DNA from: an uncultured Actinomycetota bacterium
Lineage (GTDB): Bacteria; Actinomycetota; Actinomycetes; DATJPE01
Direction of reading: 5' to 3'
Assembly: GCA_963820065.1 (NCBI GenBank)
Contig: CAWFYM010000013.1
Location: 5,835 to 69,834, forward strand
Length of the DNA stretch: 64,000 nt
Shown: piece after piece, positions 24,987 through 64,000 of the stretch
Numbering within the stretch: position 1 is the first letter of the stretch
Layout: every line of letters begins with the position of its first letter
Position numbers and translations under genes: made by a program
Notes under the pieces: generated by a model
Seen by the model: the letters and a program-made list of their open reading frames with translations, nothing else
Database searches by the model: none
Told to the model about the DNA's origin: nothing

Positions 24987-25041
24987 CTCGGACCCGCCCG
25001 TCGGAGGTCGAGGCGTCGGCGCGGTCTGGTTCGCTGCACCT

Positions 25042-43869: not shown

Positions 43870-44133
43870 GTGACCGTCCTGTACTGGCTTGTCGTGCCGC
43901 TGGTGGCGACGGCACTGGCGGCTGTGTGGGTCGCGTTCACCCATCGCACGCGCCCACGGGCCGATGCCCAGGACTCGATGGCTGAGCACCAGCGTTTCCG
44001 GCAGGCCATGGAACGCCAGTCTCCTCAGGGTGGCGCCGGGCCCGTTGACGCCCAGGGCGTCGCCGAACCGATTGAGGGGTCCGCAGATCGCGAGGACCGC
44101 GGCCGCGTCGGCGACACCGACCTGTCGGCCTGA
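43870..44133 (+). CDS. hypothetical small membrane protein
   Basis: 87 aa, GTG start, single N-terminal hydrophobic helix. Weak support. Confidence 0.3.
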   Translation: MTVLYWLVVPLVATALAAVWVAFTHRTRPRADAQDSMAEHQRFRQAMERQSPQGGAGPVDAQGVAEPIEGSADREDRGRVGDTDLSA

Positions 44134-45200: not shown

Positions 45201-45731
45201 TCAGTCGGCGAAGGTGGCGCTGAGGGCCTCTGCCAGCCCCGGTGCGAGGTTGTCTCCGGACAGGACGGACTGCTCGTTGTCGTGGCTGCGGAAGCGGATG
45301 GTGCACGCCTGCCCACCCGCGCGGAGCACGGCGACCCCCAGACGCATGTCCTGCCGCTGCGGATGCGCGGCCACCGCCCGCAGGATCTCCGCCTGGTCAG
45401 CCGGCAGGTCCCCTTCCACGTCTGCCGGCAGCATCACGCGCTCGACCACCAGCGCCGCGCCGGCCACGGCCTCGGGCCACGCGAGCTGGTGCAGCAGCTC
45501 CTCCAAGGTCTCGGCTCGGGGCAGCTCGTCCTGCTCGATCGATGTCCAGGGAGCGGCGGTGTCGGGCCCCAGGGTCTCGGCGAGCGTGGGCTCGTGGGCG
45601 AGCAGCTCGGCGGTTTCGACGAGGGCGAACAGTCGCCACGGCTGGTCCCAGCCGGCGGCCGAGGCGTGCCGCTCGAGGTCGAGCAGGACGGCCGTGAGCG
45701 GGTCGGGGGCGGGGGGAAGAGAGGTCGTCAC
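45201..45731 (-). CDS. hypothetical protein
   Basis: 176 aa with protein-like composition, divergent from the UPF0182 gene. No motif recognised. Confidence 0.4.
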   Translation of the reverse strand: MTTSLPPAPDPLTAVLLDLERHASAAGWDQPWRLFALVETAELLAHEPTLAETLGPDTAAPWTSIEQDELPRAETLEELLHQLAWPEAVAGAALVVERVMLPADVEGDLPADQAEILRAVAAHPQRQDMRLGVAVLRAGGQACTIRFRSHDNEQSVLSGDNLAPGLAEALSATFAD

Positions 45732-45860
45732 CCGATCATCCTGCCGGATCGCCGGTCACGGTGGTCGGGCGTCACGGAGCGGTATCGATCCGGCCGCACG
45801 GCTTGCCTCGATGCCGCGAATGCCGGAGAGGCCAGGTACTTTGTCGAAGTGTCGTACGAG

Positions 45861-48839
<2,979 letters not shown>

Positions 48840-48912: not shown

Positions 48913-48989
48913 CGCGGGGTGGAGCAGCTCGGTAGCTCGCTGGGCTCATAACCCAGAGGTCGCAGGTTCAAATCCTGCCCCCGCTACCA
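48913..48989 (+). tRNA. initiator tRNA-fMet (anticodon CAT), CCA encoded
   Basis: CGCGGGGTGGAGCAGCTCGGTAGCTCGCTGGGCTCATAACCCAGAGGTCGCAGGTTCAAATCCTGCCCCCGCTACCA. Near-identical to E. coli tRNA-fMet as recalled, including the 1:72 mismatch and three G:C pairs in the anticodon stem. Confidence 0.85.
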
Positions 48990-49003
48990 ACGTTTATGCA
49001 GGT

Positions 49004-49032
49004 CAGGGCCATGATCATCGATCATGGCCCTG
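49004..49032 (+). terminator. 13-bp perfect hairpin immediately 3' of the tRNA (CAGGGCCATGATC atc GATCATGGCCCTG)
   Basis: Perfect inverted repeat read directly. No T-tract follows, so function as a terminator is tentative. Confidence 0.35.
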
Positions 49033-49284
49033 ATTGCGTGTAGGCAGAATGTCAGCAAAGCCTGTCGGCGGATGTGGCCGGACAGCGGTGGATCCGGGTG
49101 GTTGGGTCCCGTTGTTGAGAGAGTCAGCGCCCCAGCCGCTCACCTCGCGGTCGTGGCGGCACATCGATCCCGAACTCGACTGGAGCTTGCGCCTGGCGTG
49201 GGCCGACAGCGGCTAAGCATGGATTACGTCCCGGGAGGGCATGAGTAATCGGAGCCGCTCCCGGCGGCTGGGGCCTCGCGGAGC

Positions 49285-49949
49285 CTAGGCAGGCGGTAGC
49301 CGGGCGGCCAGGTGCGCGTGAATGCGCTGGCGAGCCGCTCCGTCCAAAGGCCCTGAGGTCCGTAGCGCGGCCGCGGTGTCCTTGGGCCCGAGCAACGGGA
49401 CGTTGGCGATACGCAGCGTGGTCATCAACGGGAGGTACGCGCCAAGGAAGCACATCACCGGCTTTACGGGCAGGTGCTCTGCACCGGGTAGCGCGTCCAG
49501 CGCGTGTCTCACCGCGGTGACCTGCCTTGAGACGGACTGCAGGAGGTGAGTGCGGTCCCGCCCGCCGATGAACAGTTGCTCACGGGTCTCGGAGAACCAG
49601 CCGCCTGACCGGCGCACCTCGACCTTTCTTCTCGTCATAGTGCTTCGCGTCGATCACGTAGACCCCGGAGGGTGCGATAGCGATGTGATCGATGTCGCCG
49701 CGGCTCGAGCCGCCAAGTCGACGGTTGTGGAGGAAGAGGGCGGTTTCTCCGGCACGATTCTCCAAGGAAGCGGCGATCTCCCTCTACGATGGTGTCTGTG
49801 GCGAACGCCCGGGTGGATGCGGGTTCATCGGTGACGGCCAGGATGAGGCCACCGATGCGCGGGTGCTTAGCCCGTACCCGGCCCTCCCGAGCTGTCATAC
49901 GCTTCTCGTGCTCTCGCCGTAGCGACGCGCCCGGCGCACCCGGCTCCAC
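49285..49949 (-). pseudogene. NERD-domain nuclease gene split over three reading frames (two frameshifts)
   Basis: NERD signature GDIDHIAIAPSGVYVIDAKHY lies in ORF 49580..49765. Flanking pieces 49635..49949 and 49285..49638 are in the other two frames. Confidence 0.5.
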
Positions 49950-50162
49950 CGGGGTGCTCCGGGAGGTGGCGAGGAATCGCTGTCGGGACAGATGACTGAC
50001 TTCGTCGCCGTGTCCCAGCCGGCCTGAGCTCCTGCTGGCACCTCAACGCCACAGGCGCATGCGCCCGCGTAGCGGAGCCGCATCACCTTGACCCGGTCAC
50101 CCGATGCATCGCCCACCGTCCGGTCGACGGTGCCCGGAGCCCAGGACTTCAGCGCCGACAGG

Positions 50163-50418
50163 CTAGGCCGCCGGGTCTGGGTGCTGAGGTCTTTGGCGGT
50201 TGATGTAGTCGGTGAGGGCATCAGCCGGGATGCGTCGTAGCCGGCCGACGTGGATCGACTTGGATCTCGCCGACCGCGATCAGTTCGTAGAGCAGGCTAC
50301 GGCTGATCTCGAGGCGGCGGGCTGCCTCCACGACCGTGAGGAGCAGGCGATCGTCGGCTTGAACGGTCAGGTTCACAACGGGTGACGTGAAGTCGCCCGG
50401 CTGGCGACGATTGGTCAT
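50163..50418 (-). pseudogene. xis: excisionase-family (MerR-like HTH) DNA-binding protein with +1 frameshift
   Basis: MTNRRQPGDFTSPVVNLTVQADDRLLLTVVEAARRLEISRSLLYELIAVGEIQ then a one-nucleotide slip (extra A in ATCCAAGTCG). The canonical continuation SIHVGRLRRIPADALTDYINRQRPQHPDPAA* follows in the next frame. Confidence 0.6.
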
Positions 50419-50640
50419 CGTCGCGGTGATCAACTGCAGGGCGGGTGCGTTCGCGGGTGCTCGTCCCATTGCGGCTCTCCTCTGTCGGGGGTGCCACCGT
50501 GCCGGGGCCCGGTTGCAGCGGGGCTGGCGCGAGCGGCCGTGTGCTATACAGGTTCTGCGGCAGTAGCAATGGGCAGGCATCCCCCGGTTGTCATGGGGCT
50601 GGCGCGAGGCTGTCGCGACGGCCTGCCTCGACGCAGGTGA

Positions 50641-51519
50641 GTGGTGAATCCGCAGGTCGGAGGGCTCATGCGTTGGCGCCAGCCCCGTGACAACCCCCTC
50701 CGCGGAGCGTTCCCGGTGTCCGTCACCCCACCGGGAGGTTCTCCATGTTCACGACCGACCCCAGCACCCAAGTCCGTTCATCAGTTGGCACGCATGACGA
50801 CTGTGGTTCAGCTGTCTCCCGAGACCGCGAGGGTCTGCTCACGCTCCTGGAAGACATCGATCGAGCCGGCTGGAACTCCCGTCCCGCGGCGACGCTGCTC
50901 GAGTACATCCGTGCCACGGCGCCGCCCAAACGTTGCCGCCACGGGGCTTTCAGGCCCGGCCGCCGACCAGGCTGAAGCGACCGCATGGGAGGCAACCTGG
51001 GAGGCGATGACCCTGCCGTCCCTGAGGTCAGCGCGCTCGCCATGGGGGGTGCTCTGGGCGACCGCGCGACGCGCGGCTAATGGGCGAGCCGGGGCGGGGA
51101 TGTACTGCACGGACGTCCGAGCTGCCTGGCGGGCGGCCCGACCCGACGCCGCGGACAACGTCGCCAGCGATCAGGCAGCGGATACGCGAGGCGCCTTCCG
51201 TCACGACCCTCCGGTGAGTCTCACCGACCTTGAGGGGCGGGGAATGGGATTGCCTGCGTCCCCGACGTCGACCGGGACTGAGTCGAGCGACCTTCTGCCC
51301 ATCGTCGTGCGTGCTTTGGTCGAGGCGGGCTGGATGGAACGTCCGGCCGCGGAGATCGTCGATGCCGTCTCTGGTGGCTCCGCTGACGACAGCCGCACCC
51401 GTTCGGGAGCTCGCGGCGGCCTACAACTAGCGGAGGTCCTCGATGTCCCTCCGTGGCATGTTCGCGGGTCGACGGTCGTGATGCTCGGCCTTCAGGACTG
51501 CGGACTCTCGAGGCGCTGA
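50641..51519 (+). CDS. hypothetical ORF (unassignable, possibly degraded)
   Basis: 292-aa ORF with poor protein-like composition and no motif recognised in any frame of 50.6-51.8 kb. Confidence 0.15.
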   Translation: MVNPQVGGLMRWRQPRDNPLRGAFPVSVTPPGGSPCSRPTPAPKSVHQLARMTTVVQLSPETARVCSRSWKTSIEPAGTPVPRRRCSSTSVPRRRPNVAATGLSGPAADQAEATAWEATWEAMTLPSLRSARSPWGVLWATARRAANGRAGAGMYCTDVRAAWRAARPDAADNVASDQAADTRGAFRHDPPVSLTDLEGRGMGLPASPTSTGTESSDLLPIVVRALVEAGWMERPAAEIVDAVSGGSADDSRTRSGARGGLQLAEVLDVPPWHVRGSTVVMLGLQDCGLSRR

Positions 51520-52128
51520 TTGCCGACGGTCCGGATGTCCTGGCCGATCCCTGCATGCGTGCGGCCCTTCGTTCGACGGTCGTCGCTTGGTGGCCGAGCC
51601 CAGCCACAGCGGCGAGGCGGGCAGGAAGAACGACGTCATCGAGCCGAAGTCACGCAGCGTGATCTTGAGAAGTGAGAGGGGCCGACTCGCGTGTTGGCCC
51701 CTCTTCTGCACACCTCCCTGTATGACGCGAGCGCAAATTCTGCATAGCGGCACCACGAAAGGGTGGTCATCCACAGCTTCGACTCCTACGGGTTCCTTGT
51801 CTGTGGGACGGGTGTAGGAAGGCTCTCGAGACGGGGAAGGCCTCGCCAGCAGGTGGGTGATTCGCGTTTCGGAGGCGGTGATCCCTCATGCGAGGTGGAC
51901 GCCGCTGGCCTTCGGGTACTGGCGGCAACAGTGGCACTCGCCGTCGTCTTGGCGGCGAGTGCTTGCGACAGCACCTCCACCTCGCAGCCCGACTCTTCGA
52001 ACAGCTCGTCGCCAAGCCCTACCGCTACCACCACGGCTGCCGATGTGAGCAGCGTTACGGTCAACCGGGGAGTCTGCTCGAGCCAGGATGTAGACCGAGG
52101 GGTCACTCGTCGAGTTCCGCGATGGGAA

Positions 52129-52497
52129 CTATCTCGCGATGAGGCAGAACGGGTGTCCCGCCGGGTCGACGTAGACACGAAACCGTCCTTCTGTCGATGG
52201 TTGGTGCTCGTGCACCCGAGCGCCCGCGCTTAGCACCGAGGGCTCAGCGGTGCCGATGTCATCGACGGACAGATCAAGGTGGAACTGCTGTGGATGCTCA
52301 CCGCCAGGCCAGGTCGGTTCCACCCAGTCTGTGATGGCATGGAACGCCAAGGTCGGACGGGCGTCGGTGTCGTTCCCGGAGGTGATGCTCTTCGGTGGCA
52401 CCAGTTTGGCCCAAATCGGGCTAGCGCCTTCGTCCAACTCCCAACCAAGCACCGCCGAGTAGAACCGCGCTAGGACCAACGCGTCCAGGGCAGTCAA
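52129..52497 (-). CDS. VOC/glyoxalase-family protein
   Basis: 122 aa; FYSAVLGWEL...RFRVYVDPAGHPFCL typical of the glyoxalase/bleomycin-resistance fold. Confidence 0.5.
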   Translation of the reverse strand: MTALDALVLARFYSAVLGWELDEGASPIWAKLVPPKSITSGNDTDARPTLAFHAITDWVEPTWPGGEHPQQFHLDLSVDDIGTAEPSVLSAGARVHEHQPSTEGRFRVYVDPAGHPFCLIAR

Positions 52498-52599
52498 GGA
52501 TGATCAGCTCCAGTTTCGGTCGCCTTAACGTCCCATCGTTCATGATCCCGAACGGTAGCGACCGCTACCAAACGCAGTAGCTGCCAGCCGACCCCAACG

Positions 52600-53140
52600 G
52601 GGCCTGAAACGGTTGATGATGGCCGCGATGCGACGGCTGGCACCCGAGCTGCTGGTCACCGCGAAGACCGAGCGGTTGAAGCCCGGGGAGTTCTGAGGCA
52701 CCCTCGTCGAGGGCGAGATCGCCTCCCGGTCGAGTCCAACCTCCGCACCTGGATGAGGCGGGGCCGCGTTCCCCGTCGCCAAGCGACTCGAGGACTTCGA
52801 CGACACCGCCTTCATCGATCCCAACCGCCACGCTCGAAACCTTTCCTCCTCGGAGGGGATCCGCGCCGGCGAGAACGTCTGCCTCATCAGGCCCGCCGGC
52901 ACCGGGAAGTCCCACAACCTCATCGCGCTGAGCATCGCTGGGGCCGACACCGGTGGACAGAGTTCCGATACTTCACCGCCGCGGACTATTCAAGGCCCAC
53001 TACCGCGGACTGGCGGACAGCCACTCCGTCGGGGACCTCATCGACACACTGTTGCGTAACGAACTCCTCATCGTCGCCGAGCTCGGGTTCGGAAACAGAT
53101 GCGATCTCACTGGGGCCGCTCGGTTTGCCGTACCTTGATC
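52600..53140 (+). mobile_element. IS21-family IstB (ATP-binding helper) gene remnant, multiply frameshifted, no istA
   Basis: Fragments across three frames: ...RLEDFDDTAFIDPNRHARNL...ENVCLIRPAGTGKSHNLIALSIAG (Walker A), RYFTAADY, DLIDTLLRNELLIVAELGF (DExx box). Confidence 0.5.
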
Positions 53141-53203
53141 TTTCCAAGGCGAACTCAACGATTGTCCTCTCAAGGGCATCAAGGTTCGTAGGCGGGAGTG
53201 TTG

Positions 53204-53695
53204 CTAGCCACTGGACGACGAGCCCGTAGAGCATCGCGTCGAACTCCGACGTGAAGGGTACCGCTCTGTCTTCAGGTTCGAGGCCCTCCACAGCTTGCTC
53301 CAGAAGGGCGAACCACGCAGGCGCGCCGTTTCGCGATCACTTCTCGCAGGCGGGAATCCTCGAATGGCTTCGCCATATGCGGCGATCCAAACTTGCCAAC
53401 TCTCAAAGGTCTCGGAGTCGTGCGGCATCATTGCCCTAACGAACGCTTGGAGACGTTCCGGACCCTGCGCGTGCGCCTTAACTGCCGCGGCCGCACGAAC
53501 CTGTGGAGCCGCTCTGAAACGAATGTCAAGGTGCTGGCCAACATTTCGGCGCGATTCGGGGTAGTAGTGGTTGAGCATGCCCGTACTCACGCCGGCCTGA
53601 TTTGCCACGGCGCGCATCGTCGTCCCGGCAAACCCGCGCTGAGCAATCACGCGTGCAGCACCGTTGCAGATCTGCCTCCGGCGCACGTCCCCCAT
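53204..53695 (-). CDS. TetR family transcriptional regulator (C-terminus possibly disrupted)
   Basis: HTH RQICNGAARVIAQRGFAGTTMRAVANQAGVSTGMLNHYY. The 3' part abuts or overlaps the IstB remnant, and an alternative C-terminal frame exists (52986..53291). Confidence 0.45.
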   Translation of the reverse strand: MGDVRRRQICNGAARVIAQRGFAGTTMRAVANQAGVSTGMLNHYYPESRRNVGQHLDIRFRAAPQVRAAAAVKAHAQGPERLQAFVRAMMPHDSETFESWQVWIAAYGEAIRGFPPARSDRETARLRGSPFWSKLWRASNLKTERYPSRRSSTRCSTGSSSSG

Positions 53696-54049
53696 CCCCA
53701 GCCTGGGCACCTTCTGATCATCTCCTTCGCGCTGGCGGTCGCCATGCCGACGCACTTCGAGTGCGTCAGCATCATGTCAGGGAGCGCCGAGCCCCCGCAA
53801 AGTCCGGCCGCCGCCGTGAGTCACCTGGGCGCGACGACGAGCTATAGGGTGATCTCGATCTTGCTGGAGTACTGACATCGTTGAGACGCCGCGCTTGCTG
53901 CGACAGCTTGCTTGGCCACCGAGTCAGATGTGTGGACGATTGCGATGATCAGGCCACGACCTCGGCCGTCCGTTGCTGCTCTGACTCGAGTGACCGACCA
54001 GTCCCGCCGGCCAACTCTGGGTTGTCGCGCCCAGGGTCTGATGGGAGGC

Positions 54050-55010
54050 TCTCATTTCACGGAAAGATGGGGAGTTCTGGCAACAGGGGAAGTACCCGGA
54101 GGGGCTTCGGGAGCGGGCGATCCGGTCCCCGGGCGAGGCGAGGCGTGATCCGGTGACGCGGATGGGGGCGTTCCGGCGGGTCTGTGAGCAGTTGGGTCAC
54201 CCCCGAGACGTTGCGTAACTCGATCCAGCAGCCGTAGATCGATGAGGGAGCCAGGGCGGGCACCGTGGGCGGTGATGCTGTGCGCATTGCGCAGTTGGAG
54301 CGGGACAACCGTGGAGCTGCGACGCGCGAACGCGATTTGAAGAGCGCTTCGGCCTTCTTCGCGGCGAGCTCGAACGCCGACAGCGGTGATCGTCGACTAC
54401 ATCGACGCCCACAAGGACACATTCGGGGTCGAGCCGATCTGCGCAGTGCTGCAGGTCGCCCCTAGCACCTACTACGCCCACCGGTCCCGGCCGCCGTCTG
54501 GCAGGTGGGTCAGCGACGCCGCAACGTCCGCGCGGATCGGCAACGTCCCCCTGTCAACTACTGGGTCTATCGGGCGCGGAAGGTCCCATCCGAGTTGAAC
54601 CGCTCGGGACATTCGGTGGCCCGTCACACGGTTGAGCGGTCGATGCGAACGGCTTGGCTGCGCTAGATCTCCCGGGCGAAGGGACCCCACACGACCGTTC
54701 CCGGGCTGGGTCCCGATCATCGCCTGGACCTCGTTGACCGCGACCGCAATAACCAGCTCTGGGTCACTGACATCACCGAGCACCCGACCCGAGAAGGGCA
54801 AGGTCTACTGCGCCGCGGTCCTGGACGCCTTCAGCCGCCGCGATCGTCGGCTGGTCCATCGACTCCCGACCAGGACACCACTCTGGTCATCAACGCCCTC
54901 GACATGGCCATCCGCAACCGACGCCGCGACCCCGGCGGCATCGTCCACGCCGATCACGGCGTCCACGGCGTCCACGGCGGATTCAATCAATCGTCCCAAC
55001 ACCTCGTGAT
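54050..55010 (+). mobile_element. IS3-family insertion sequence remnant (orfA/orfB, multiple frameshifts)
   Basis: OrfA-like KYPEGLRERAI..., ...TPETLRNSIQQP, AQLERDNR...LKSASAFFAA. OrfB-like IVDYIDAHKDTFGVEPICAVLQVAPSTYYAHRSRPPS, NQLWVTDITEHPTREGKVYCAAVLDAFSRR. Pieces are spread over all three frames. Confidence 0.6.
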
Positions 55011-55058
55011 CATGGAGGTGTTCGATGGTTCGTCGTCAACAGGGCGGCAGATCGGGCA

Positions 55059-55400
55059 GTGCGTGAACCCGTGAGGTCGCCGGGGGTGCCGCCGCATCAG
55101 CGCGAGACGCAGCGCTTGTTCTGGATCGAGATCACCAACGGTTCAATTCCCGCGCAGGCGGCGATCGCGGTCGGCGGGCGGCAGGTCGGGCAGCGGTGGT
55201 TCCACAATGCGGGCAGCACGCCACCGTTCGATCTGGAGCCGTTGTCGGGCCGCTACTTGTTGTTTCCTGAGCGTGAGGAGATCGCCCTGCGCACGGCGCA
55301 TGGCGCATGGAGTCTGCGAGATCGCTCGCGCTATCGGTCGTCATCCATCGACGATCTCGTGGGAGGTGCGACGCATCAGTTCTTGCCCGTCAAGTCTGAA
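55059..55400 (+). mobile_element. IS30-family transposase 5' fragment (truncated, frameshifted)
   Basis: QRLFWIEITNGSIPAQAAIAVGGRQVGQRWF...GRYLLFPEREEIAL then, in the next frame, CEIARAIGRHPSTISWEVRR (IS30 N-terminal HTH consensus). No catalytic DDE region follows. Confidence 0.55.
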
Positions 55401-56592
55401 AGCATCGTGGCCATTCGTTGGATTGCTGCCTCACGGCCGTACGCTCTTGCACGACCAGACAGAGACAACGCTAACGCTGCTCGCTGAACCGGATCATGGA
55501 CCAAGCGGCGAATAGTATCGACGCCCGTGCCAGCATCACTCCAAGGGGTCACTACCCCCAAGTCGTAGTCGGACACTTCAACCGCTAGAGGGCTCCGGGC
55601 TCCAGACACGGCAAGAATAGGTGTACCAGCACAAATGGCCGGAATAAGTTTACTCGGAATGAACGATGAACCTGCGTCCTCGACCTCCGTAATTACGAAG
55701 ACTTCTGCGAGGAGCAGCTCCTGGACGAAGCGATCCTCGGGCAAGAAGTCCTCGAAAGAGAAGCGGCCATCGCACGATCTAGCGATCCAGTCTCGGACTG
55801 CGCCAGCTTCAGAACCAGCGCCGAAGATTGACAGCTGAAACGCCAGCGAGGTGTCTGAGGCGATGCGTTCACAGAATTCGATGAGGTTCTGGCTTTCGCC
55901 GAATATTCCCGGCATATAGCATCCTGAGAGTCCCAGGGACCGGAACCGCTGATCGAAAATCGCCTCGCATGTGTGCGAATTTTTCAATCGAAACTTCCAT
56001 GGATCTGTGTAGGAAGTTGGGGGAAGTATTCGACTGGGACAGATATCGTCGAACGATATTCTGTACCTGGTCGACCATGCCCGGCGCGATTGTGCATGTC
56101 TGGTTAGCCCGTTCAAAGAGAAATCTCTGAACGCACTTAGCAAGCCGGGAGCGTATGCCACCAGATAGAATATTACCTGCCGATGCAGCCTCTGCCGGGA
56201 TATCCTGCACATTGAGCAGAATTCGCTCGCCTCGCACGGCCTTTCGAACCGCTGCGATACCCAAGACACGAGATCAACGGGCAGTAGGCGATCACCACGT
56301 CGAACTGTCCTAGAGAGACAATGCCCCGGCATAGGCTAAGAAAGAATGAGATCTCTTGTACGACTCGTTGTTGTACCTTGGCAGGCGACGAAGGAATATA
56401 CATTCCATGACGGTTGATAATAAGAGCACCATTTTGTTCCACGTCGATGCGAATGCCGTTCCGACCGGACTTGTCACGCCATTCGGGGTAATATGGATAG
56501 GCCGTTTGTACGACAACGTCACTTCCGGTATCGACCAACCCGAGCGCTAGGTCGGTAATGACTGAAGCCCCGCCGCCGCGTACCAGGATCAA
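55376..56592 (-). pseudogene. GT4 glycosyltransferase (WcaI-like; PYYPEW motif) in three frame pieces
   Basis: N-terminal 56173..56592 (GGASVITDLALGLV...QTAYPYYPEW), middle 55869..56264, C-terminal 55376..~55900 (EDAGSSFIPSKLIPAICAGTPILAV) in different frames. Confidence 0.55.
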
Positions 56593-56699
56593 AGAGGTTC
56601 GTGACGATCAGTATTCGCATCGGCCAGAACCATAGCCGCCGATTGTCGGGCCGGGCCCGGGGGCGATGAAGCTCACTCTGGCACCAACCAGCGGCGGCG

Positions 56700-57965
56700 C
56701 GGAGACGGCGCCAAGAACATTCGTGGGCGGGGCTCAGGAAAGGTTACGACCATACATCATGGAAGCACGTCGCGGTCGATGTTTCGCATGTCGCAGCCGC
56801 AGTGGCCATTGCATGCCCTTCTCGGCATGCGCGCCGATGTCGCCTTATCTCAAGAGTGCCCGTCGGTCGAGTGGGCCTATGTAGGGTATGGCTTCGATGA
56901 AGGCCGCGTTCGAGGGACGACTTGTCTTGCTCTAGGTCTCGATGCCGATGGTAACGGCGGCATTCAGACATTTCTTGGTTGCTTACGTGAAGCTCTAGAG
57001 GCTCTAGCGAAGGAGACGCGGTGACCCGCCAGGGCAGATGCTTGCTGCGTAGTCAATTCACCCGCAATGCTCGATTCTGTCTGATCATCAGCGCCATAAA
57101 GTCGGTCCTCCGCTGTCCGCCTGACACTCTCATAGTTGCGCACAGAAATCTCCTTCCCTTAGCGTATGTGCTTCGGCGACTTCGTCCTTCGATTGGCGTT
57201 TGTCTGTTCCTCTATGGACGCGAGGTCGAACCGATGTTCTCGCTTCCGGCAAGGTGGTTCCTTCTGGAAGAGAGCGCCGTCTGGTGTGTCGCCATTTTCC
57301 GAGTCCACTAAACGAGTTGCATGCGCTGCCGGCGTGCCGCAACACCGAATAGCGGTCATTCCTCTAACCATTCCACCCTCTCAAATTTCAGAAGCGCCCG
57401 ATATCTTGCTCGCGGCGAAGCCCCGGCCGGGTCTGGCTGTGGTTACGGTGGCGCGACTTGAGTCGGGCAGCGAACGTCAAGAATGTCGATCTTCTGATCG
57501 AAGCAATCGCAAGCCCTGAACTTGATGGGCGACGTATTACTCTGGACATTGTTGGAGACGGAGACCGGCGGGACGAGTTGGAGAAGCTCGCGCACGCCCG
57601 AGGCGTGGGCGACCGAGTTTCTTTCAATGGTTCGGTATCCGACGTGGAGCGCGAGCAGTACCTACCTCGCTTCCGACCTATTTTGCCTTCTGTCGGAACA
57701 GGAGGGCTTTGGGTTGGTGGTGCTCGAGGGATGGCAGCACGGCCTCCGGGTGCTGGTCGCAGACCGACCCGCTCTGAACGAAGTCGTGGAGTCGGGCCGT
57801 AACGGACTCGCTGGAGAGCCACGTGTCAGCGATGTATCGACTGCGTTGGCATGGTTCCACGACAATCCCGATGAGCGGCTCTCAATGGCCCGAATGGGCT
57901 TGCCGCGCTGGGCAGTCAATTTTCTGGATCGATCTTCCAGGAAGCCGTTCGGCGTGAAGTGCTAA
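56700..57965 (+). pseudogene. GT1/GT4 glycosyltransferase with at least 2 frameshifts
   Basis: Pieces: ...AVIPLTIPPSQ...LAVVTVARLES / NVDLLIEAIASPELDGRRITLDIVGDGDRRDELEKLAHARGVGDRVSFNGSVSDVEREQYL / YLASDLFCLLSEQEGFGLVVLEGWQHGLRVLVADRP...RMGLPRWAVNF. The frames switch near 57480 and 57665. Confidence 0.55.
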
Positions 57966-59157
57966 CCGCTCCGAATCCAGCGCTCGTAGATCTCGTGCGG
58001 GTGATTCCGTCCTACACCTCTACGTATGGAGGCCCGGCGGTCGCCCTTCAAGCGATCACATATGAGCTAAATGAACAGGATATTCGCACTGCGATCATTT
58101 CCGCACTGATTCACCTCGGGCAACAGTTGCTTGGAGTTCCCGAGGGCTCCATCAAGATTGCCATAGGGCCCGGCGTCGCGAGTTTGGACCTGGAGCCCAC
58201 TCGCCGTAAGACTTGGCTTGTCCCTCAGGTCCCCGAGCGTTGTTGTTCACGGGATTTGGGGGAGCCAGGTGGCCGACGGAGTGAGGCTCGCGGCTGGGAA
58301 ATTGGCGCCGACTGCTTTGTGTACGCGCATGGAATGCTGGACCAGCACTTCCTTGAGAGGGATCGCCGGAGCCGCCTAGTCAAACAGCTGGTCTATCGCC
58401 TTTCGACTCGGCGGAATCTCGAGCGAGCGACGGCAATTCTGTGGACCTCTGAGCAGGAAGCAGCGGCGTAGCACCGGCTACCCTGGACTTTCAATTCTGC
58501 CGTCGTTTGTAATCCAATATGGCGCAGCACCGATCGGTCAGCCGAAGAACTCCGCAAGTCACGAGACGCCGAGGAACGGGCTAACCCCGTAAATACATAC
58601 TCTTCCTCGGTCGAGTGGTCGAAAAGAAGCGTCCCGCCGAATTGCTGATCGCCTTCGCGCTGATTGCCCGCGAGACTCGAGTGCGCCCTTGTCTTCGCAG
58701 GATCCGTCGATTCTTCTACGCGGGCGGTCATCGAACGGCTTGCCCGGAACTATGGTCTTGAGGACCGCGGTCGTGTGGGCCGGCCATGTAGACGGAAAGC
58801 AAAAGGACGAACTGTTTCAGAATGCGGCGGTGTTCTGTCTCCCGTCATCGCAGGAAAGCTTCGGAGTCCGCGGTTGCCGAGGCGCTTTCGACGGGATGTC
58901 CGGTTGTGCTCTCGGCGGATGTCGCGCTCGCTCCGTTGGTGGCGGACTACGGGGCCGGGGAAGTCGTGGATGGGCGGGATCCCGAATCCGTCGCTCGCGG
59001 GCTCTTTCGACGGGTGTTACGCGAAGGTCGTGCCAACTACGCCGACCTTGCCAGGAACATGTACGAAAACGAGTGCTCTCTGAGCGCTGCTGCCGAGTCG
59101 CTACTGGAGGCGGTCGGCCTCAGTGTCTCGACCAAGGAGCGTAGCGCCAAAGGCTGA
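57959..59157 (+). pseudogene. GT4 glycosyltransferase with frameshifts
   Basis: N-terminal VIPSYTSTYGGPAVALQAITYELNEQDIRTAII (57959..58471). C-terminal pieces DELFQNAAVFCLPSSQESFGV and VAEALSTGCPVVLSADVALAPLVADYGAGEVV... lie in other frames (58689..59157). Confidence 0.5.
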
Positions 59158-59319
59158 GTCCTACGTCTCGTGGCCCAGCAACCGGCTCGTCTCGCACAGC
59201 GTGACCTCGATGCGGTGCGGATGGACTGGATTGGTCGCGCTCCCGAACGGGATCTCAGGGCTGGCTCGGCGAACTGTCGCCCCGGGCACCGGAAGGCACC
59301 ACGTGATGCTCGTCATCGC

Positions 59320-60791
59320 TCAGGTGGAGGCGCTCAACATCGGGCTAAGCACTTGTTTGACGCAGGACTGGATCGCCCCTAGCGGCATGAGTAGGCGGTG
59401 TCCGCGTGGACGCAGGTTCTTCATCGTTCCCGTCGCCCGGCATGCGCATGCGCATGCATTGTGACACGGCCGCCCAACTCGCGGAGGCTCGAGTGCATCG
59501 TTCCGGGAAGCGCAGCCTGGAACGCTCTGGACCCATCTACGGTCAACAGTGCAGCCAGTCCCACCGATCCTGACCCGACCTATACTCACTGTCGACGGCG
59601 CGCGTGTGAATCCTGCGTAGAAATAGAGCGCACATAGCGAAAGGAGTGCACATCCTGCGTGAGCGATCGGCCACCATCGCTCTGGATTCGTTCCGAGAAA
59701 TGCGATTAAGGGAACCAAGAGGAAGAACAATGCGATCAAACGGAAACCGATAAGGCGCCGCGTTCCGGTATGTCTTCAGTTCGGCCACCAGTGGCACGTG
59801 ACCGATATACGCAATCTGCCATATCGACGCCCCGAGGAAAAGGAATGAAATACCACCGGGTATCCGCGGCAGAGCGCTGTGCGCCAAAGGGAGCAGCGGA
59901 ACCATTACAACATACCAGGCAGCTCCTGCGCTCATGGCTACCGCTATCGACGCTTTCGACCGAACAGCACGAGCCAGACTTGAGAGTCAGAATCGTGAGC
60001 ACGGGACCGAGAAAAATCAATGGGCCGGCCAACACCAACGTGGCTCGAGAAGTTGCGAAGCCTTGAACGGAGAGCGCGTAGGCCAAGATTGCAAGGTGAA
60101 TATAGCCAATCGACTGCGCTACGACGGCATCGACAACAAGCGGCCCGGCGGTAGGGTGGATCCATACTTTGTCATGTTCGATAAAGGTTGCTGCCAACGC
60201 AGCATCTCTGCACCCACAGCTTGGCGCTCTCGCCTTATGATGGCCCGACACCAAAATGACCAGTTCGACAGCTACGACGAAGAGCAGCCAACCCAGAATC
60301 AGACCAACTGAACTCGACTTTGTGATGGCGAAGGCCAGGATAGTTGTCGGCCCAAGAAGGAGGAGCCACAAGCAGTCGAGTGCTAAAGCTGAGCGTGGCC
60401 GTGCGGCAAGGAGCGCATACCGCCTCACCTCAAACCGACACAGAGCAGGAACTAGTAAGGCAACGCCGACCACCGTAGCTGGGCCGAACGTGCACAGCAC
60501 CACGCCTACCAATCCAGATATGGCGACCCCCAACTGTAAGCGGCTTGTAGACATGACGGGCGAACGGTTGGCCAGTTGATACTCTGCAAGGGAAGAACGA
60601 GCAACTGATTGAACGACTAGTATGGAACCCCAGGCAAGAGTGAAATTTCTGAACTGGGATGCACTGAGCGAGAGTGCAATAATCTGTGGTAAGAGATTAG
60701 TAATCGACGAAACCGCTTGATCCAAAAATGTGGTAGGGGCAGACGCTGTATTGGAAATTCTGCCCCGCCTACCGCTAGCTATCAGTGCCAT
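59320..60791 (-). pseudogene. Wzx-like polysaccharide flippase (polytopic membrane protein) in three frame pieces
   Basis: Hydrophobic multi-helix ORFs 59736..60791, 59543..59935 and 59320..59739 are contiguous on one strand in different frames. The N-terminus resembles MOP/Wzx flippases. Confidence 0.4.
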
Positions 60792-62410
60792 TCGGTCTCC
60801 TTGGCCGCTGAAGCTTCGCCTCTCCGTTTAGTTGATAAAGCGGCGAGCTGCGACCACGACAATGCAGCGGAGCTGTGAATTGTTGGGCCAACTTAAGCAG
60901 TCGAAGCAGGGAACGGCGAGTCTCGTTGGCAGGGGCCAAGCGGTATGGCGAGACTGCGTCGCGACCACTTCGGACCCCGCATTTAGCCACAGCATCCGTC
61001 GACGGTAGACGTTCATCTTTACCCAGTGTGTTCGACGTGAGGACCACGTGGCGATTTTTCGACGCCTTGCGAACGAGATGTGATGACCGGGGACCTTGGG
61101 GAGACGGACCAGTGGGCAGAACTGCGCCTATGGCAAACACCAAGGCGCTCGTGAGAAGCATGCCTCTGAAGCGCTGACGCGAGGCCAGCCGACAAAATCG
61201 TGGCTCCACTGCGAGCGATAGTCCATCCCCAGAGGGAGAATAGTCCAACTACAATTGGAGAACCTGTCCGTCGGCTGAAAGCGCGGTCGAGGGCACTGAA
61301 TAGAAAGCCTAGGCAGGCACTTCCTGCAACAACTAGTGGAACGCCACCGTTGGCGTACAGTTCAAGTGGATGGCCGACCACCACGCTGGTAAACGAGTCG
61401 GAAGGACCTACCAACCCGACGTGGCGCCCGAATATGTGTCCGAACAGACCAGGATCGGGCTTCGAAGTATCCCAGGAATCGCGGCACCGGTGTATAGACG
61501 ATCCAGGCGAGTGTCTCACCGGCATCCGCTGGCCAGCCCTCGCCTCCCCGTTCCAGACTTTTACCTACGGACACAGTGTCAGACAATCTTCCCAGCACAC
61601 TTTCGAGGCCAGCGCCAAGAAGCTCGTCTTGCCAGTGAGTGAAGGTCTGGATTGTGGTCGAGGCGAGATGCTGGATTGGTTTTCTCGATAAGTCTGTGTG
61701 TTGGTCTCCACGATATGAGCTGATCAATGGAAATACCACGAACGTCGAGACGATTGCGACGAGCGCGATCGCCCTACGTGGAACTTTGCCGCCCGTCACG
61801 ACCGTCGAGATCAGCAGAACAATGAAGGGCAGAAGAACGTTCTCGCGAAGTCTTCCGCTCGGTAGTGCGATAGCGATTTCAAATACAAACAGTGCCACAA
61901 CAAGGTTACTTCCACGCCGAGAGGGTTGCCTGACTTGCGTACTCGCTACCGCTGCCCAATACGATCAAAGGAAGAAGGGAGAAGAGTCGACAGAACCCAG
62001 CCACTGTTTGACGAAACGAGGCTCTCTGAGCGATGGAAGAATGACCCCCTGGCGATTTCCACTAAGCGGGCAATCGTCCCTATTAGGAAGAGAAATGCTG
62101 CAAGTTCTGGCCGCAGAGGTTTCCAACGTTGGACCGGGCCTAGTCGTCTCGACTTCCGACTCTGGGTTCGGTCGAAAAGCCACGAACCGAAAAATCTTCC
62201 AGAGACATGGAGCGCTCCGAGAGCTATGGCTGCGGCCAGAATGTGTTCGTCGAGTTGGTAGCGAGAATCGGACGGAGGCGTGATTCCGAAGTAGAGACCG
62301 CCGAGTCCGTAGGCGACGCCGAAATATCGTGCGGACATACCAATTATACTCGCACCGCCGAGATTCGCCTCCGCCCCAAATGAGCGGACCCGGCGCTGCT
62401 CCAGGTCCAT
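60775..62410 (-). pseudogene. Wzy-like O-antigen/EPS polymerase (membrane protein) in about four frame pieces
   Basis: Consecutive hydrophobic ORFs 61946..62410, 61362..61898, 61019..61525 and 60775..61248 on the minus strand. Assignment rests on context and topology only. Confidence 0.3.
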
Positions 62411-62516
62411 GTACTCACCGATATTACGAGCGTCGCGCTCAATACGAGCAGGGTCATGGCGTGAGAGATTTGCTTGTTGGGTGGTGGCGATTCCGTTGAA
62501 AGGACAACCTGATGAC

Positions 62517-63101
62517 CTAGCGCTCTTCGTAATGTGTGTAATCGTGCCCTGGTCGGGGCGACGCGGCCGTGGAGGGTGCTAGGACTCTTGAAGCGCTCGG
62601 GACTGAACGATGAACAAGTGCCGTCGCCCCGATGAGCGTGTCTGAGCCAATAGTGACGCCACGGAGAATTGTTGCGCGTGCACCAAGCCAAGTTCGATCG
62701 CCAATTCGTACTGGAGCGTTGTCATACTCGAAGGAATGCGAGTCAAATTGATGACTTCCAGTACAGATCAGTACATCCTGAGAAATGCACGTGTTCGACC
62801 CAATTTCGACCGTCTCTAGATTGAGTATCCACGCTCCTTCTCCTATCCAACTGTCGTGTCCGACTTCGAGTTTCCACGGCCAGTGAATAGCCGCACCCGA
62901 TGGCGGATCTGAACACCTAAGACCGATTTGGGCCCCGAACTTGCGCAATATCCACAGCCGGAGGCGATTGGGTACGAACCACGGTTGTACAAGAACGGGC
63001 TGGATCAGAAGCCATGATGCCTGTACCCATACAGAACGGCCCTTCTCGTAGCCGCCTTTCCCGAAGGTGCTGAGGACCATCCGTGCAGAGTCGAGACCCA
63101 T
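62517..63101 (-). CDS. wcaF: WcaF-like colanic-acid/EPS O-acetyltransferase (left-handed beta-helix hexapeptide family)
   Basis: Start ATG 63101 (MGLDSARMVL...). LRLWILRKFGAQIG...HWPWKLEVGHDSWIGEGAWILNLETVEIGSNTCISQDVLICTGSHQFDS...APVRIGDRTWLGARATILRGVTIGSDTLIGATALV aligns with E. coli WcaF as recalled. The listed 430-aa ORF is an upstream over-extension. Confidence 0.7.
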   Translation of the reverse strand: MGLDSARMVLSTFGKGGYEKGRSVWVQASWLLIQPVLVQPWFVPNRLRLWILRKFGAQIGLRCSDPPSGAAIHWPWKLEVGHDSWIGEGAWILNLETVEIGSNTCISQDVLICTGSHQFDSHSFEYDNAPVRIGDRTWLGARATILRGVTIGSDTLIGATALVHRSVPSASRVLAPSTAASPRPGHDYTHYEER

Positions 63102-64000
63102 GCCGGTTTCAGGAGCCCTCGGGGATCTGTACATGCGCCGCAAAGTACCAGCACAGCTTTGCGTCGGCGGTTGTTCGGTCTCGATTGGAGCAGGAGCCCC
63201 GGGGGCCGGTTCGCTATTCCGAGTCGGCGTGCTCCGAGCGCAGTTCGGATTGCGCTGCCGAACTCGCGGCGAAGAGCACTGGTAGATCTGTGCAGCCGGA
63301 CTGGTGCATCGTTGGCGCTCTTCTGCCACGTCAATGTACTGGTCGAAATTCGAACGATTCGCCTGCCCTCTAAGGGGCGAGGGTGTTGGAGCGCGGGCGG
63401 GCTGCTGTGCTGGTCGACGCAGTGGTGTACCGGTGGTTGACCGACCGTGCGTGTTCTTGACCCGACTCGAGCGGGCGTCTATGCGTCCGATACGTCCCGC
63501 TATCTCGTCCACGACGGCGTCTGGGGTGCTCGCGCTCGCGCCCTGCGCGAGTGCGAACCTGGGTTCGACTCGACTGCACGGTGCACTTTCAGGGTCAGTG
63601 CGCCGATCGGGCACCCGGCGGTGTGGCGTGGGCGAGCTGACCGGACCCAGTCCCGAGGCGGCTGCGAGCGCTGCGGCTCCACTGACGGGCTCGCCTATGA
63701 ATGGCACTTCACCATGCAGAACAACAGCGACGAAATGACCCTCCGGGACTATGCCAGAGTGGTGCGGGCGGCGGAAGTCGATCGTCGTCGCGGCGGTGCT
63801 GATCGCCACGGTGGATCGCCCTGGCGCTGTGAGACGCTACGAGACCCCGATCTACGTGGCATCGGCCGGACGTCCTCGTCCAGCCTCGAGGGCCAGACAG
63901 GTTGTTCGACTCGCAGGTGACTGCGCTGAACAACCGGGCCGTCCAGAACCAAGATCCAGGTGATCGAGGGTTGAGGCCATCCCCGCAGGCGTAGGCCGAC

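What the first reader, a model, noticed from the sequence alone, without database searches (positions are those of the whole stretch)
48913..64000. Abrupt boundary at initiator tRNA-fMet into a degraded, lower-GC accessory region
Up to 48.9 kb the window is tightly packed, GC-rich core with long intact ORFs. Immediately after tRNA-fMet (48913..48989) the ORF track collapses into short fragments in all frames. G+C drops visibly from ~55.4 kb onward (e.g. caaatggccggaataagtttactcggaatgaacgatgaa). The content becomes a frameshifted xis-like excisionase gene, a frameshifted NERD nuclease gene, IS21/IS3/IS30 debris and a polysaccharide (wca-like) cluster. tRNA 3' ends are classic attB sites for integrative elements. 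No integrase gene is seen next to the tRNA and the xis gene is frameshifted, so the element appears to be immobilised and decaying.
Basis: partly seen in the sequence, partly recalled or inferred. Interest (0 to 1): 0.7.

Follow-up and report, generated by a model that had tools for sequence, protein, structure and literature searches.

The report
Variable region beside initiator tRNA, mostly mis-assembled
The DNA after the initiator tRNA is a real lineage-specific accessory stretch (a nuclease-domain gene, a small DNA-binding gene, insertion-sequence scars and a low-GC sugar-polymer gene cassette), but most of its "broken genes" are probably sequencing-consensus insertion errors, and nothing shows that a mobile element integrated into the tRNA.

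Summary
The boundary is real. tRNA-Met(CAT) lies at 48913-48989. Upstream, 85% of the DNA is long, coding-like ORFs; downstream, 11%. G+C falls from 0.695 to 0.574 at 55.38-63.15 kb.

Two parts of the interpretation do not hold.

1. "Decaying" is largely an artefact. An independent public contig (ENA ERZ25039539 contig_6142) carries the same 15 kb at 97.3% identity. It differs by 100 small indels, and in 91 of them the window has the extra base(s), with the composition and context of random insertions. The WcaI-like gene is intact there, the second glycosyltransferase's C-terminal domain reads in one frame, and merging the two assemblies restores full-length NERD and xis-like genes. The last 13 kb of core shows no frameshift. 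Lesions shared by both assemblies, and so probably real, are a 4-nt duplication in one glycosyltransferase, three TetR frameshifts, and truncated IS21 and IS30 copies.

2. tRNA integration is not supported. Homology to relatives runs 75-125 nt past the tRNA. There is no att repeat and no integrase, including 13 kb beyond the window. Each relative has different ordinary genes at this position.

Verdict: an ordinary variable locus holding part of a polysaccharide gene cluster. Low interest.

The parts
45282..48839 (+). UPF0182-family gene, the last gene of the conserved synteny block (PDZ/Lon_C gene 44133-45182, then UPF0182, then tRNA-fMet)
   Evidence: Pfam PF03699 at 977 bits. Orthologues in L001-L004 are 72-84% identical and align in a single frame. 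A tRNA-Met follows the UPF0182 gene in 10 of the 14 related loci scanned.
48913..48989 (+). Initiator tRNA-Met (CAT)
   Evidence: ARAGORN; Rfam RF00005 at 63.6 bits. Initiator features were read from the sequence. Nearly invariant in L001-L004.
49001..49035 (+). 16-bp hairpin after the tRNA. It belongs to the conserved flank, which extends to about 49062 against L003/L004 and about 49114 against L001.
   Evidence: Alignment A1; blastn end points; fold of -40.4 kcal/mol, z = -4.8.
49285..50085 (-). NERD-domain protein gene. It has 3 frameshifts in the window that are private to this assembly. The merged reconstruction is 266 aa and full length.
   Evidence: Raw sequence: partial NERD match, 28 bits. 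Hybrid: NERD profile 5-110/111, 51.5 bits. The hybrid aligns over 100% of its length to many of the 403 NERD-family hits (most 230-310 aa), best 75% identity. Frame map.
50190..50460 (-). Excisionase-family (HTH_17 / TIGR01764) DNA-binding gene, called "xis-like". Frameshifted in the window; the domain-coding part reads in one frame in the sibling. Coordinates are approximate.
   Evidence: HTH_17 1-51/51; TIGR01764, 50 bits, cut-off 28.8. The sibling gene call carries HTH_17.
50600..52128 (.). 1.5 kb with no recognisable gene. It contains a 292-aa ORF at 50641-51519 (+) with no family match.
   Evidence: No Pfam or PADLOC hit. No clear codon periodicity. pN/pS of 0.7-1.3 against the sibling.
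52129..52497 (-). Glyoxalase/VOC-like gene, open in the window
   Evidence: Pfam Glyoxalase_6 at 64.7 bits.
52598..53093 (+). IS21 IstB fragment (aa 26-189 of 267), with no IstA. A remnant present in both assemblies.
   Evidence: Pfam IstB_IS21; blastn to plasmid istB genes; tblastn.
53204..53755 (-). TetR-family regulator pseudogene. It needs 4 frame corrections in the window, 3 of them also needed in the sibling.
   Evidence: Three-frame comparison. The repaired protein gives TetR_N 2-45/47 and TetR_C_6 3-107/115.
54090..55005 (+). IS3-family copy: orfA at 54090-54312, ALIL frameshift pseudoknot at 54351-54463, orfB aa 1-217 of 246 at 54392-55005. It carries one extra frameshift that is shared with the sibling.
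   Evidence: (RF01497, 60.5 bits).
55224..55395 (+). IS30 transposase N-terminal stub (aa 3-59 of 399) abutting the low-GC block
   Evidence: Pfam HTH_38; tblastn.
55379..56620 (-). WcaI-family GT4 glycosyltransferase. It has 3 private frameshifts in the window and is intact (412 aa) in the sibling.
   Evidence: P0002. tblastn of P0002 and of the independent homologue P0005: one frame in the sibling, 3-4 HSPs in three frames in the window. NF007640 aligned 1-405/411.
56850..57950 (+). GT1/GT4 glycosyltransferase "GT1a", with a 4-nt tandem duplication (TACC TACC, about 57655-57662) shared by both assemblies. Probably a true pseudogene.
   Evidence: Split Pfam match in two frames; sequence; both assemblies shift at the same point; the repaired protein matches GT1 19-166/172 at 93 bits.
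58000..59141 (+). Second glycosyltransferase "GT1b". Its C-terminal domain reads in one frame in the sibling and is broken 3-4 times in the window.
   Evidence: and (91.6 bits, profile 15-164/172, for the sibling reading).
59736..62500 (-). Membrane-protein genes with no family hit: one open 351-aa ORF at 59736-60791, plus further reading frames at 60.8-62.5 kb that lengthen to 406 and 230 aa only when the two assemblies are merged. Candidate polymerase/flippase genes.
   Evidence: hydrophobic translations. No Pfam or NCBIfam hit, so the function is inferred from context only.
62523..63086 (-). WcaF-family hexapeptide acetyltransferase, open in both assemblies; about 63.15 kb marks the end of the low-GC block. 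The sibling's own gene call for this gene is 204 aa.
   Evidence: Pfam Hexapep; NF007797 aligned 4-166/183; sibling 204-aa gene.
63461..64000 (+). Start of a Wzz / tyrosine-kinase (CbiA/ParA-type ATPase) gene at native G+C, running off the window. The polysaccharide locus continues beyond 64000.
   Evidence: The sibling has a 553-aa gene with Wzz, GNVR and AAA_31, followed by Bac_transf fragments and DUF4012 at G+C 0.67-0.73. tblastn onto window 63461-63952.

Best explanation
tRNA-fMet and its hairpin close a synteny block (PDZ/Lon-like gene, UPF0182, tRNA-fMet) seen in most related Actinomycetes loci examined. About 75-125 nt after the tRNA begins a lineage-specific, probably strain-variable stretch. 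It was built by ordinary gene gain, IS activity and recombination, not by site-specific integration into the tRNA.

The stretch is a mosaic of three parts:
- 49.1-52.1 kb, near-native composition: a NERD-domain gene, an excisionase-family HTH gene and 1.5 kb of unknown sequence.
- 52.1-55.4 kb: a VOC/glyoxalase gene, a dead TetR gene and scars of IS21, IS3 and IS30.
- 55.4-63.15 kb, low G+C (0.574): WcaI-like, two GT1, membrane-protein and WcaF-like genes. This is the variable centre of an exopolysaccharide locus. Its native-GC genes (Wzz/tyrosine kinase, priming transferase, DUF4012) follow beyond the window.

The striking collapse of ORFs is mainly technical. This part of the contig carries about 2-3 random 1-2-nt insertions per kb in its consensus. 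The most likely cause is that a strain-variable region had low or mixed read coverage in a long-read metagenome assembly. A few genuine lesions sit underneath: the GT1a duplication, the TetR frameshifts and the IS truncations.

Shown: the boundary, the content, the private versus shared status of the lesions, and the absence of att and int.
Inferred: low coverage as the cause, and the role of the cassette in polysaccharide synthesis.
For: - Boundary and composition.
- Conserved block and flank.
- Relatives have different, intact, same-GC genes after the tRNA.
- Independent assembly of the island: 97.3% identity, 287 mismatches and 100 indels. In 91 indels the window has the extra base(s). The 1-nt indels are A20/C20/G17/T16, and about 43% adjoin an identical base, which is the random expectation.
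- Mutual repair restores full NERD and HTH_17 domains and full-length alignment to many NERD homologues.
- WcaI and the GT1b C-terminal domain read in one frame in the sibling and are broken in the window.
- The last 13 kb of core shows 0 frameshifts against four relatives.
- Shared lesions.
- The polysaccharide locus continues at native G+C.
- The nearest genomes are Nanopore-only, Medaka-polished MAGs (PMC12313526).
Against: - No reads are available, so low coverage and consensus error are inferred rather than seen.
- Picking hybrids by longest ORF gives partly wrong frames in some genes (gt1b and x1).
- dN/dS is informative only for NERD (0.40), and there only weakly.
- The sibling contig is itself error-prone: it has split gene calls.
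- The far end of the variable region was not reached, so a distant integrase or attR cannot be excluded.
- The sibling contig stops exactly at the junction, so the join to the tRNA rests on one assembly plus about 60 nt of flank homology.
Confidence: 0.68

Rival explanations
1. First reader's model. A genomic island or integrative element inserted by site-specific recombination into the 3' end of tRNA-fMet. It has since lost its integrase and is decaying through real frameshifts.
For: - The variable DNA starts next to a tRNA.
- An excisionase-family gene lies 1.2 kb from the tRNA.
- IS scars and some shared, real lesions are present.
- One NERD homologue elsewhere lies 2.3 kb from an integrase gene.
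Against: - Homology with relatives continues 75-125 nt past the tRNA, including the hairpin. Integration into the tRNA would have displaced that flank.
- No repeat of the tRNA 3' end was found in the window or in 13 kb beyond it.
- No integrase was found in six-frame scans or in the sibling gene calls.
- The xis-like and NERD genes are intact once private indels are removed.
- The NERD part has near-native GC3 of 0.82.
- The far side is a native-GC polysaccharide locus, not core DNA resumed.
- No relative has an integrase at this tRNA.
Confidence: 0.1
2. Chimeric contig. The assembler joined a well-covered core genome to a poorly covered fragment of another, related organism through the conserved tRNA-fMet/hairpin sequence. 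On this reading the adjacency, and therefore the "boundary", is not biological.
For: - Consensus quality changes abruptly at the junction.
- The sibling contig ends exactly at window 49055.
- The contigs of L001 and L003 also end shortly after this tRNA.
- tRNA genes are conserved sequence shared between species.
Against: - The conserved tRNA-plus-flank stretch is only about 200 nt, which is short compared with long reads.
- The last ~60 nt of the sibling contig (window 49055-49114) are homologous to the tRNA-downstream flank of L001. This suggests the island also abuts this flank in the second assembly.
- NERD and the native-GC polysaccharide genes have the composition expected of the same kind of high-GC actinobacterium.
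Confidence: 0.14
3. The private 1-2-nt indels are real. Both lineages are independently and rapidly pseudogenising the island.
For: - Some lesions are certainly real and shared.
- pN/pS is near 1 for several segments, though counts are small.
Against: - At 55-63 kb there are about as many indels as substitutions. From general knowledge, bacterial pseudogenes show roughly 5-20 times fewer indels than substitutions, with a bias towards deletion.
- 91% of the indels are insertions in one sequence. They have uniform base composition and no slippage context.
- NERD, xis-like and WcaI have no shared lesion at all.
- NERD shows an excess of synonymous change (pN/pS 0.40).
Confidence: 0.05

Closest known systems
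tRNA-linked genomic islands and actinomycete integrative elements (pSAM2/SLP1-type AICEs); comparison made from general knowledge
   Same: Accessory DNA begins next to a tRNA gene. An excisionase-family HTH gene, IS elements and atypical composition are present in part of the region.
   Different: There is no tyrosine or serine recombinase, no att direct repeat, and no replication or transfer genes. The junction lies after the tRNA's downstream hairpin, not inside the tRNA. The far side runs into a chromosomal polysaccharide locus.
Wzx/Wzy-type surface-polysaccharide loci (colanic acid wca, O-antigen and capsule clusters) with a low-GC, strain-specific centre between conserved genes
   Same: WcaI-family and WcaF-family genes, two GT1 glycosyltransferases and multi-pass membrane proteins are followed by Wzz/tyrosine-kinase and priming-transferase (Bac_transf) genes. 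The low-GC centre (0.574) sits in a 0.69 genome. The cassette is nearly identical between two lineages whose flanks differ by 4-16%.
   Different: The NCBIfam scores are below the curated cut-offs, so these are family-level relatives and not colanic-acid orthologues. No Wzx or Wzy family match was obtained. One glycosyltransferase appears truly inactivated.
Indel-induced false pseudogenes in long-read (Nanopore/PacBio) assemblies. [quoted passage not shown]
   Same: Many 1-2-nt indels split genes. They are not reproduced in an independent assembly, and removing them restores full-length proteins.
   Different: The errors are confined to the accessory 15 kb while the adjoining 49 kb is clean. 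In the window they are insertions, not the homopolymer deletions typical of Nanopore data.
IS3-family insertion sequence with an ALIL pseudoknot (Rfam RF01497)
   Same: orfA, pseudoknot and orfB occur in the right order (54090-55005).
   Different: The copy has an extra frameshift in orfA, shared with the sibling, and lacks about the last 30 codons of orfB. It is probably inactive.

Membership tests
tRNA-integrated genomic island / integrative element | Site-specific recombinase (integrase) gene at one end | tested here: not met
   No Phage_integrase or recombinase domain in six-frame Pfam scans of 49-64 kb. None among the gene calls on 28 kb of the sibling contig.
tRNA-integrated genomic island / integrative element | Direct repeat of the tRNA 3' end (attL/attR) flanking the element | tested here: inconclusive
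   No second copy with <=3 mismatches in the window. No match of >=15 nt to the tRNA 3' part in the sibling contig up to 13 kb beyond the window. The far end of the region was not reached.
tRNA-integrated genomic island / integrative element | Junction with conserved DNA lies within or at the 3' part of the tRNA gene | tested here: not met
   Homology with L001-L004 continues through the hairpin to 49062-49114, which is 75-125 nt past the tRNA end.
tRNA-integrated genomic island / integrative element | Absent from related genomes, whose flanks are contiguous at the empty site | tested here: inconclusive
   The region is absent from the relatives. But no empty site exists: each relative has different genes after the tRNA, and none matches the far side of the sibling contig.
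tRNA-integrated genomic island / integrative element | Composition deviating from the host genome | tested here: met
   Met only for 55.38-63.15 kb (G+C 0.574, GC3 0.54-0.60, against 0.695 and 0.89 in the core). The tRNA-proximal 3 kb is near native (G+C 0.674; NERD GC3 0.82).
True pseudogene (biological inactivation) | The same lesion is present in an independent assembly of the locus | tested here: met
   Met for the GT1a 4-nt duplication, three TetR frameshifts, the IS21 IstB and IS30 truncations and the IS3 orfA frameshift.
   Every frameshift in these genes coincides with an indel difference from the sibling. The merged or sibling versions are full length.
Excisionase-family DNA-binding protein (TIGR01764 / HTH_17) | Full-length match above the curated cut-off | tested here: met
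The family also includes regulators that are not excisionases. Excision activity is not testable here.
Wzx/Wzy-type polysaccharide biosynthesis locus | Glycosyltransferases plus a chain-length/tyrosine-kinase gene plus a priming transferase | tested here: met
   WcaI-family and two GT1 genes. Wzz/GNVR/AAA_31 and Bac_transf on the continuation in the sibling. The start of the Wzz gene lies in window 63461-64000.
Wzx/Wzy-type polysaccharide biosynthesis locus | Recognisable flippase (Wzx) and polymerase (Wzy) | tested here: inconclusive
   The membrane-protein ORFs at 59.7-62.5 kb have no Pfam or NCBIfam match.
Bacterial initiator tRNA | CAU anticodon, mismatched 1:72 pair, three G:C pairs in the anticodon stem, A11:U24 | tested here: met
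   Anticodon from ARAGORN. The other features were read directly from the sequence. The defining criteria are from general knowledge.

The most novel reading that the evidence does not exclude
The ~11.5-kb segment at 51.9-63.4 kb differs by only about 0.6% between two assemblies, and part of that may be error. It holds the VOC gene, the IS scars and the low-GC glycosyltransferase cassette. Its flanks differ by about 4.4% (49.0-51.9 kb) and 7-16% (>63.5 kb). This would fit a very recent transfer of a surface-polysaccharide cassette between two uncultured soil actinobacterial lineages by homologous recombination, at a hot spot next to tRNA-fMet, with no site-specific recombinase involved. That would be serotype switching caught in the act in uncultured Actinomycetota.
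Probability: 0.3. Interest if true: 0.35.

Novelty: new member of a known kind. Interest (0 to 1): 0.13.

Why it matters
The main value is as a caution. A region that looks like a decaying island in a metagenome-assembled genome can owe most of its "pseudogenes" to local loss of consensus accuracy. Comparing two independent assemblies separates private lesions (artefact) from shared lesions (real). Biologically, the locus is an ordinary variable region holding the strain-specific part of an exopolysaccharide cluster in an uncultured high-GC actinobacterium. The possible recent exchange of that cassette between lineages is of modest interest for population genomics of soil Actinomycetota.

Tried and rejected
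- Exact-protein look-ups of three window ORFs and of P0001 found no record of the window's own contig. I therefore could not read the remaining 6.9 kb of the 70.9-kb contig. The listing of cluster members gave no accession.
- blastn of 56-64 kb against plasmids found nothing.
- PADLOC gave no meaningful defence-system hit for NERD, the xis-like gene or the unknown ORFs.
- Choosing indel alleles by longest open frame worked for NERD, xis and WcaI. It produced partly out-of-frame text for GT1a, GT1b and the 60.8-62.0 kb gene, and those hybrids had no or partial Pfam hits. I re-read those genes frame by frame instead.
- dN/dS between the two assemblies was too poor in differences to be useful outside NERD.
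- The genomic contexts of three NERD homologues were mixed: one lies near an integrase and two lie among plain chromosomal genes. NERD is therefore not a marker of a mobile element.
- I looked for resumption of synteny between the far side of the sibling contig and the tRNA-downstream DNA of relatives and found none.
- I considered that the relatives might carry integrases at this tRNA, which would make it a hot spot for integrative elements. None of the genes checked next to the tRNA in L002-L006 is one.

Full report
**1. Observation**

ARAGORN finds a single tRNA in the window, tRNA-Met(CAT) at 48913-48989 (+), and Rfam agrees. Read directly from the sequence, it has a C1/U72 mismatch, A11:U24 and three G:C pairs in the anticodon stem. 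By textbook criteria that makes it an initiator tRNA.

G+C is 0.695 over 1-48.9 kb, 0.674 at 49.07-52.1 kb, 0.644 at 52.1-55.38 kb, 0.574 at 55.38-63.15 kb and 0.656 at 63.15-64 kb.

The difference in G+C between codon positions is 0.40-0.50 inside the last core gene. It falls below 0.25 directly after the tRNA. Stop-free stretches of at least 100 aa with coding-like GC3 cover 85% of the core but only 11% of 49-64 kb. The described boundary is therefore real and far beyond chance.

**2. Content**

I scanned six-frame translations (stops replaced by X) against Pfam, ran blastn against plasmids, and ran tblastn with annotated IS proteins. Together these gave:

- NERD domain (-) near 49.6-49.8 kb.
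- IS21 IstB fragment at 52598-53093, covering aa 26-189 of 267, with no IstA.
- Glyoxalase/VOC gene at 52129-52497 (-).
- TetR gene at 53204-53755 (-).
- IS3 orfA at 54090-54312 and orfB at 54392-55005. An ALIL frameshift pseudoknot lies between them at 54351-54463 (Rfam, 60.5 bits).
- IS30 N-terminal stub at 55224-55395, covering aa 3-59 of 399.
- WcaI-family GT4 gene (-) at 55379-56620.
- Two GT1 glycosyltransferase genes (+) at about 56.85-59.14 kb.
- Membrane-protein ORFs (-) at 59.7-62.5 kb.
- WcaF-family acetyltransferase (-) at 62523-63086.

No integrase domain was found.

**3. Relatives**

The gene before the tRNA is a UPF0182-family gene (977 bits). Searching species-representative genomes with it returned uncultured Actinomycetota MAGs as nearest relatives (84, 81, 77 and 77% aa identity; L001-L004). 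A tRNA-Met follows the UPF0182 gene in 10 of the 14 related loci scanned, including Sporichthya, Kineosporia and Kitasatospora.

DNA homology between the window and L001-L004 runs through the tRNA and a 16-bp hairpin at 49001-49035. The hairpin region folds at -40.4 kcal/mol, z = -4.8. Homology ends at about 49062 against L003/L004 and about 49114 against L001. That is 75-125 nt after the tRNA end, not inside it.

Nothing in 49-64 kb has a counterpart downstream of the tRNA in any relative. The relatives also share nothing with one another there. Their downstream genes are intact, of host-like G+C and ordinary: a histidine kinase, LuxR, MarR, baeRF, LysR and GNAT. None is an integrase.

The tRNA therefore marks the end of a conserved synteny block followed by lineage-specific DNA in every genome examined. 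No copy of the tRNA 3' end occurs elsewhere in the window.

**4. The decisive comparison**

A protein search with the 319-aa WcaI-like ORF returned two useful hits:

- The window's own product (P0001), on a 70,890-nt contig held by NCBI and ENA.
- A 412-aa version, 97% identical (P0002), on ENA ERZ25039539 contig_6142 (37,071 nt).

That contig (loci L081 and L082) aligns collinearly with window 49055-64000 at 97.3% identity. It ends exactly at window 49055.

The two sequences differ by 287 mismatches and 100 indel events, of which 73 are 1 nt and 18 are 2 nt. In 91 of the 100 events the window has the extra base(s). The 1-nt indels are A20/C20/G17/T16 in DNA that is 57-67% G+C. About 43% of the 1-2-nt single-base events adjoin an identical base, which is what random insertion predicts.

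At 55-63 kb there are as many indels (3-10 per kb) as mismatches (2-11 per kb). From general knowledge, real divergence in bacteria has several-fold fewer indels than substitutions, is biased towards deletion and is linked to slippage. This pattern is that of consensus error.

**5. Gene-by-gene test**

WcaI-like gene:
- P0002 and an independent homologue (P0005, 38% identity, named WcaI by JGI) align to the sibling in one frame over their whole length.
- They align to the window as 3-4 HSPs in three frames.
- The window therefore has three private frameshifts.

NERD gene:
- Choosing, at the five frameshifting indel differences, three sibling alleles and two window alleles gives an open 266-aa protein.
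- Its Pfam match rises from a partial 28 bits (profile 8-59) to 51.5 bits (profile 5-110/111).
- It aligns over 100% of its length to many of the 403 NERD-family hits, most of them 230-310 aa, with best identity 75%.
- Between the two lineages its pN/pS is 0.40.

xis-like gene:
- The repaired reading has HTH_17 1-51/51 and TIGR01764 at 50 bits against a cut-off of 28.8.
- The sibling has no frameshift within the domain.

GT1b:
- The C-terminal domain is a single-frame 91.6-bit GT1 match in the sibling.
- It is split over three frames in the window.

Conversely, the sibling is broken where the window is open (TetR N-terminus, glyoxalase, the membrane ORF). Both assemblies therefore carry independent errors.

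In the 13 kb of core before the tRNA, every orthologue from four relatives aligns to the window in one frame. That is 0 frameshifts in about 8.3 kb of coding sequence. Island genes show at least 15 in about 3.5 kb.

**6. What is really damaged**

Some lesions are shared by both assemblies:

- GT1a changes frame at the same point in both. The DNA there reads CAG TAC CTA CCT C, a 4-nt tandem duplication (TACC TACC). Removing it gives a continuous 93-bit GT1 domain.
- TetR needs four frame corrections in the window. Three of them are also needed in the sibling. The repaired protein matches TetR_N and TetR_C_6 end to end.
- The IstB and IS30 pieces are truncated in both assemblies. The IS3 orfA has a shared extra frameshift in addition to its programmed one.

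There is thus some true decay, concentrated in the IS-scarred 52-55.4 kb segment and in one glycosyltransferase.

**7. Beyond the window**

Past window 64000 the sibling contig continues with a Wzz/tyrosine-kinase gene, whose start lies at window 63461-64000. Bac_transf fragments and DUF4012 follow at G+C 0.67-0.73, then DUF222, DUF4389, CoA_binding_2 and DUF559 genes.

Over those 13 kb there is no tRNA, no integrase, no repeat of the tRNA 3' end and no resumption of synteny with relatives.

The low-GC block (GC3 0.54-0.60 against 0.89 in the core) is therefore the variable centre of a polysaccharide locus. It is not the cargo of an element bounded by the tRNA.

**8. Mosaic divergence**

Mismatches between the two assemblies run at about 4.4% at 49.0-51.9 kb, about 0.6% at 51.9-63.4 kb and 7-16% beyond 63.5 kb. 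This suggests that the central 11.5 kb was shared recently between two lineages. It is the only mildly novel lead.

**9. Why the errors stop at the boundary**

This point is inferred, not shown.

- The sibling contig has Flye-style naming.
- Three contigs break at or near this tRNA: the sibling at 49055, L001 517 nt after the tRNA and L003 4.3 kb after it.

This is what a strain-variable locus does in a metagenome. The core is collapsed from many strains at high depth, while the variable part has low or mixed depth and a poor consensus.

A chimeric join through the conserved tRNA flank is the main technical alternative. Against it, the last ~60 nt of the sibling contig (49055-49114) are homologous to the tRNA-downstream flank of L001. 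Only reads can settle this.

**10. Verdict**

- The "accessory, partly foreign" reading is right.
- The "tRNA-attB integrative element" reading fails three of its defining tests.
- The "decaying" reading is mostly an assembly artefact over a small amount of true decay.
- The locus is ordinary: low interest, a new member of a known kind.

Noticed in passing
window 54351-54463 (+): ALIL pseudoknot (Rfam RF01497, 60.5 bits, full length). It lies between orfA and orfB of the IS3-family copy and is the element's programmed -1 frameshift signal. One of the frame changes there is therefore natural.
   Followed up: partly
window 51900-63400 compared with L081: This ~11.5-kb segment differs by about 0.6% between the window and the sibling contig. 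The flanks differ by about 4.4% (49.0-51.9 kb) and 7-16% (>63.5 kb). This looks like recent sharing of the IS-scarred segment and the low-GC polysaccharide cassette between two lineages.
   Followed up: partly
window 49001-49035 (+): A perfect 16-bp hairpin lies directly after tRNA-fMet (region fold -40.4 kcal/mol, z = -4.8). It has no following T-run. It is conserved in L003/L004 and present in an expanded form in L001/L002. Its role (processing signal, terminator or protein-binding site) is unknown.
   Followed up: partly
L001 (ends 517 nt after its tRNA-fMet), L003 (ends 4.3 kb after), L081 (ends at window 49055): Three independent contigs from related organisms stop at or shortly after this tRNA. 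The locus seems systematically hard to assemble, as expected if it varies between strains within populations.
   Followed up: no
window about 57655-57662 (+): A 4-nt tandem duplication (TACC TACC) shifts the frame of glycosyltransferase GT1a. It is present in both assemblies. It is a slippage-type mutation, unlike the random private insertions elsewhere in the region.
   Followed up: yes
L083 6001-10817 (ENA ERZ25039498 contig_2929, 1.1 Mb): A 384-aa NERD homologue (56% identity) lies in a cluster with HIRAN and 2OG-Fe(II) oxygenase genes and a 468-aa Phage_integrase gene. This may be a real integrative island in another MAG from what appears to be the same survey.
   Followed up: no
L082 757-1246 and 9357-10870: The sibling contig has split gene calls in its high-GC part: CoA_binding_2 as 92 + 85 aa, and a priming transferase as 215 + 219 + 77 aa. 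That whole contig is therefore of low consensus quality, not only the part matching the island.
   Followed up: no
window 24874-31586 (+): Two adjacent, very large intact ORFs (1143 and 1177 aa, GC3 0.86) lie in the core. I did not examine them.
   Followed up: no
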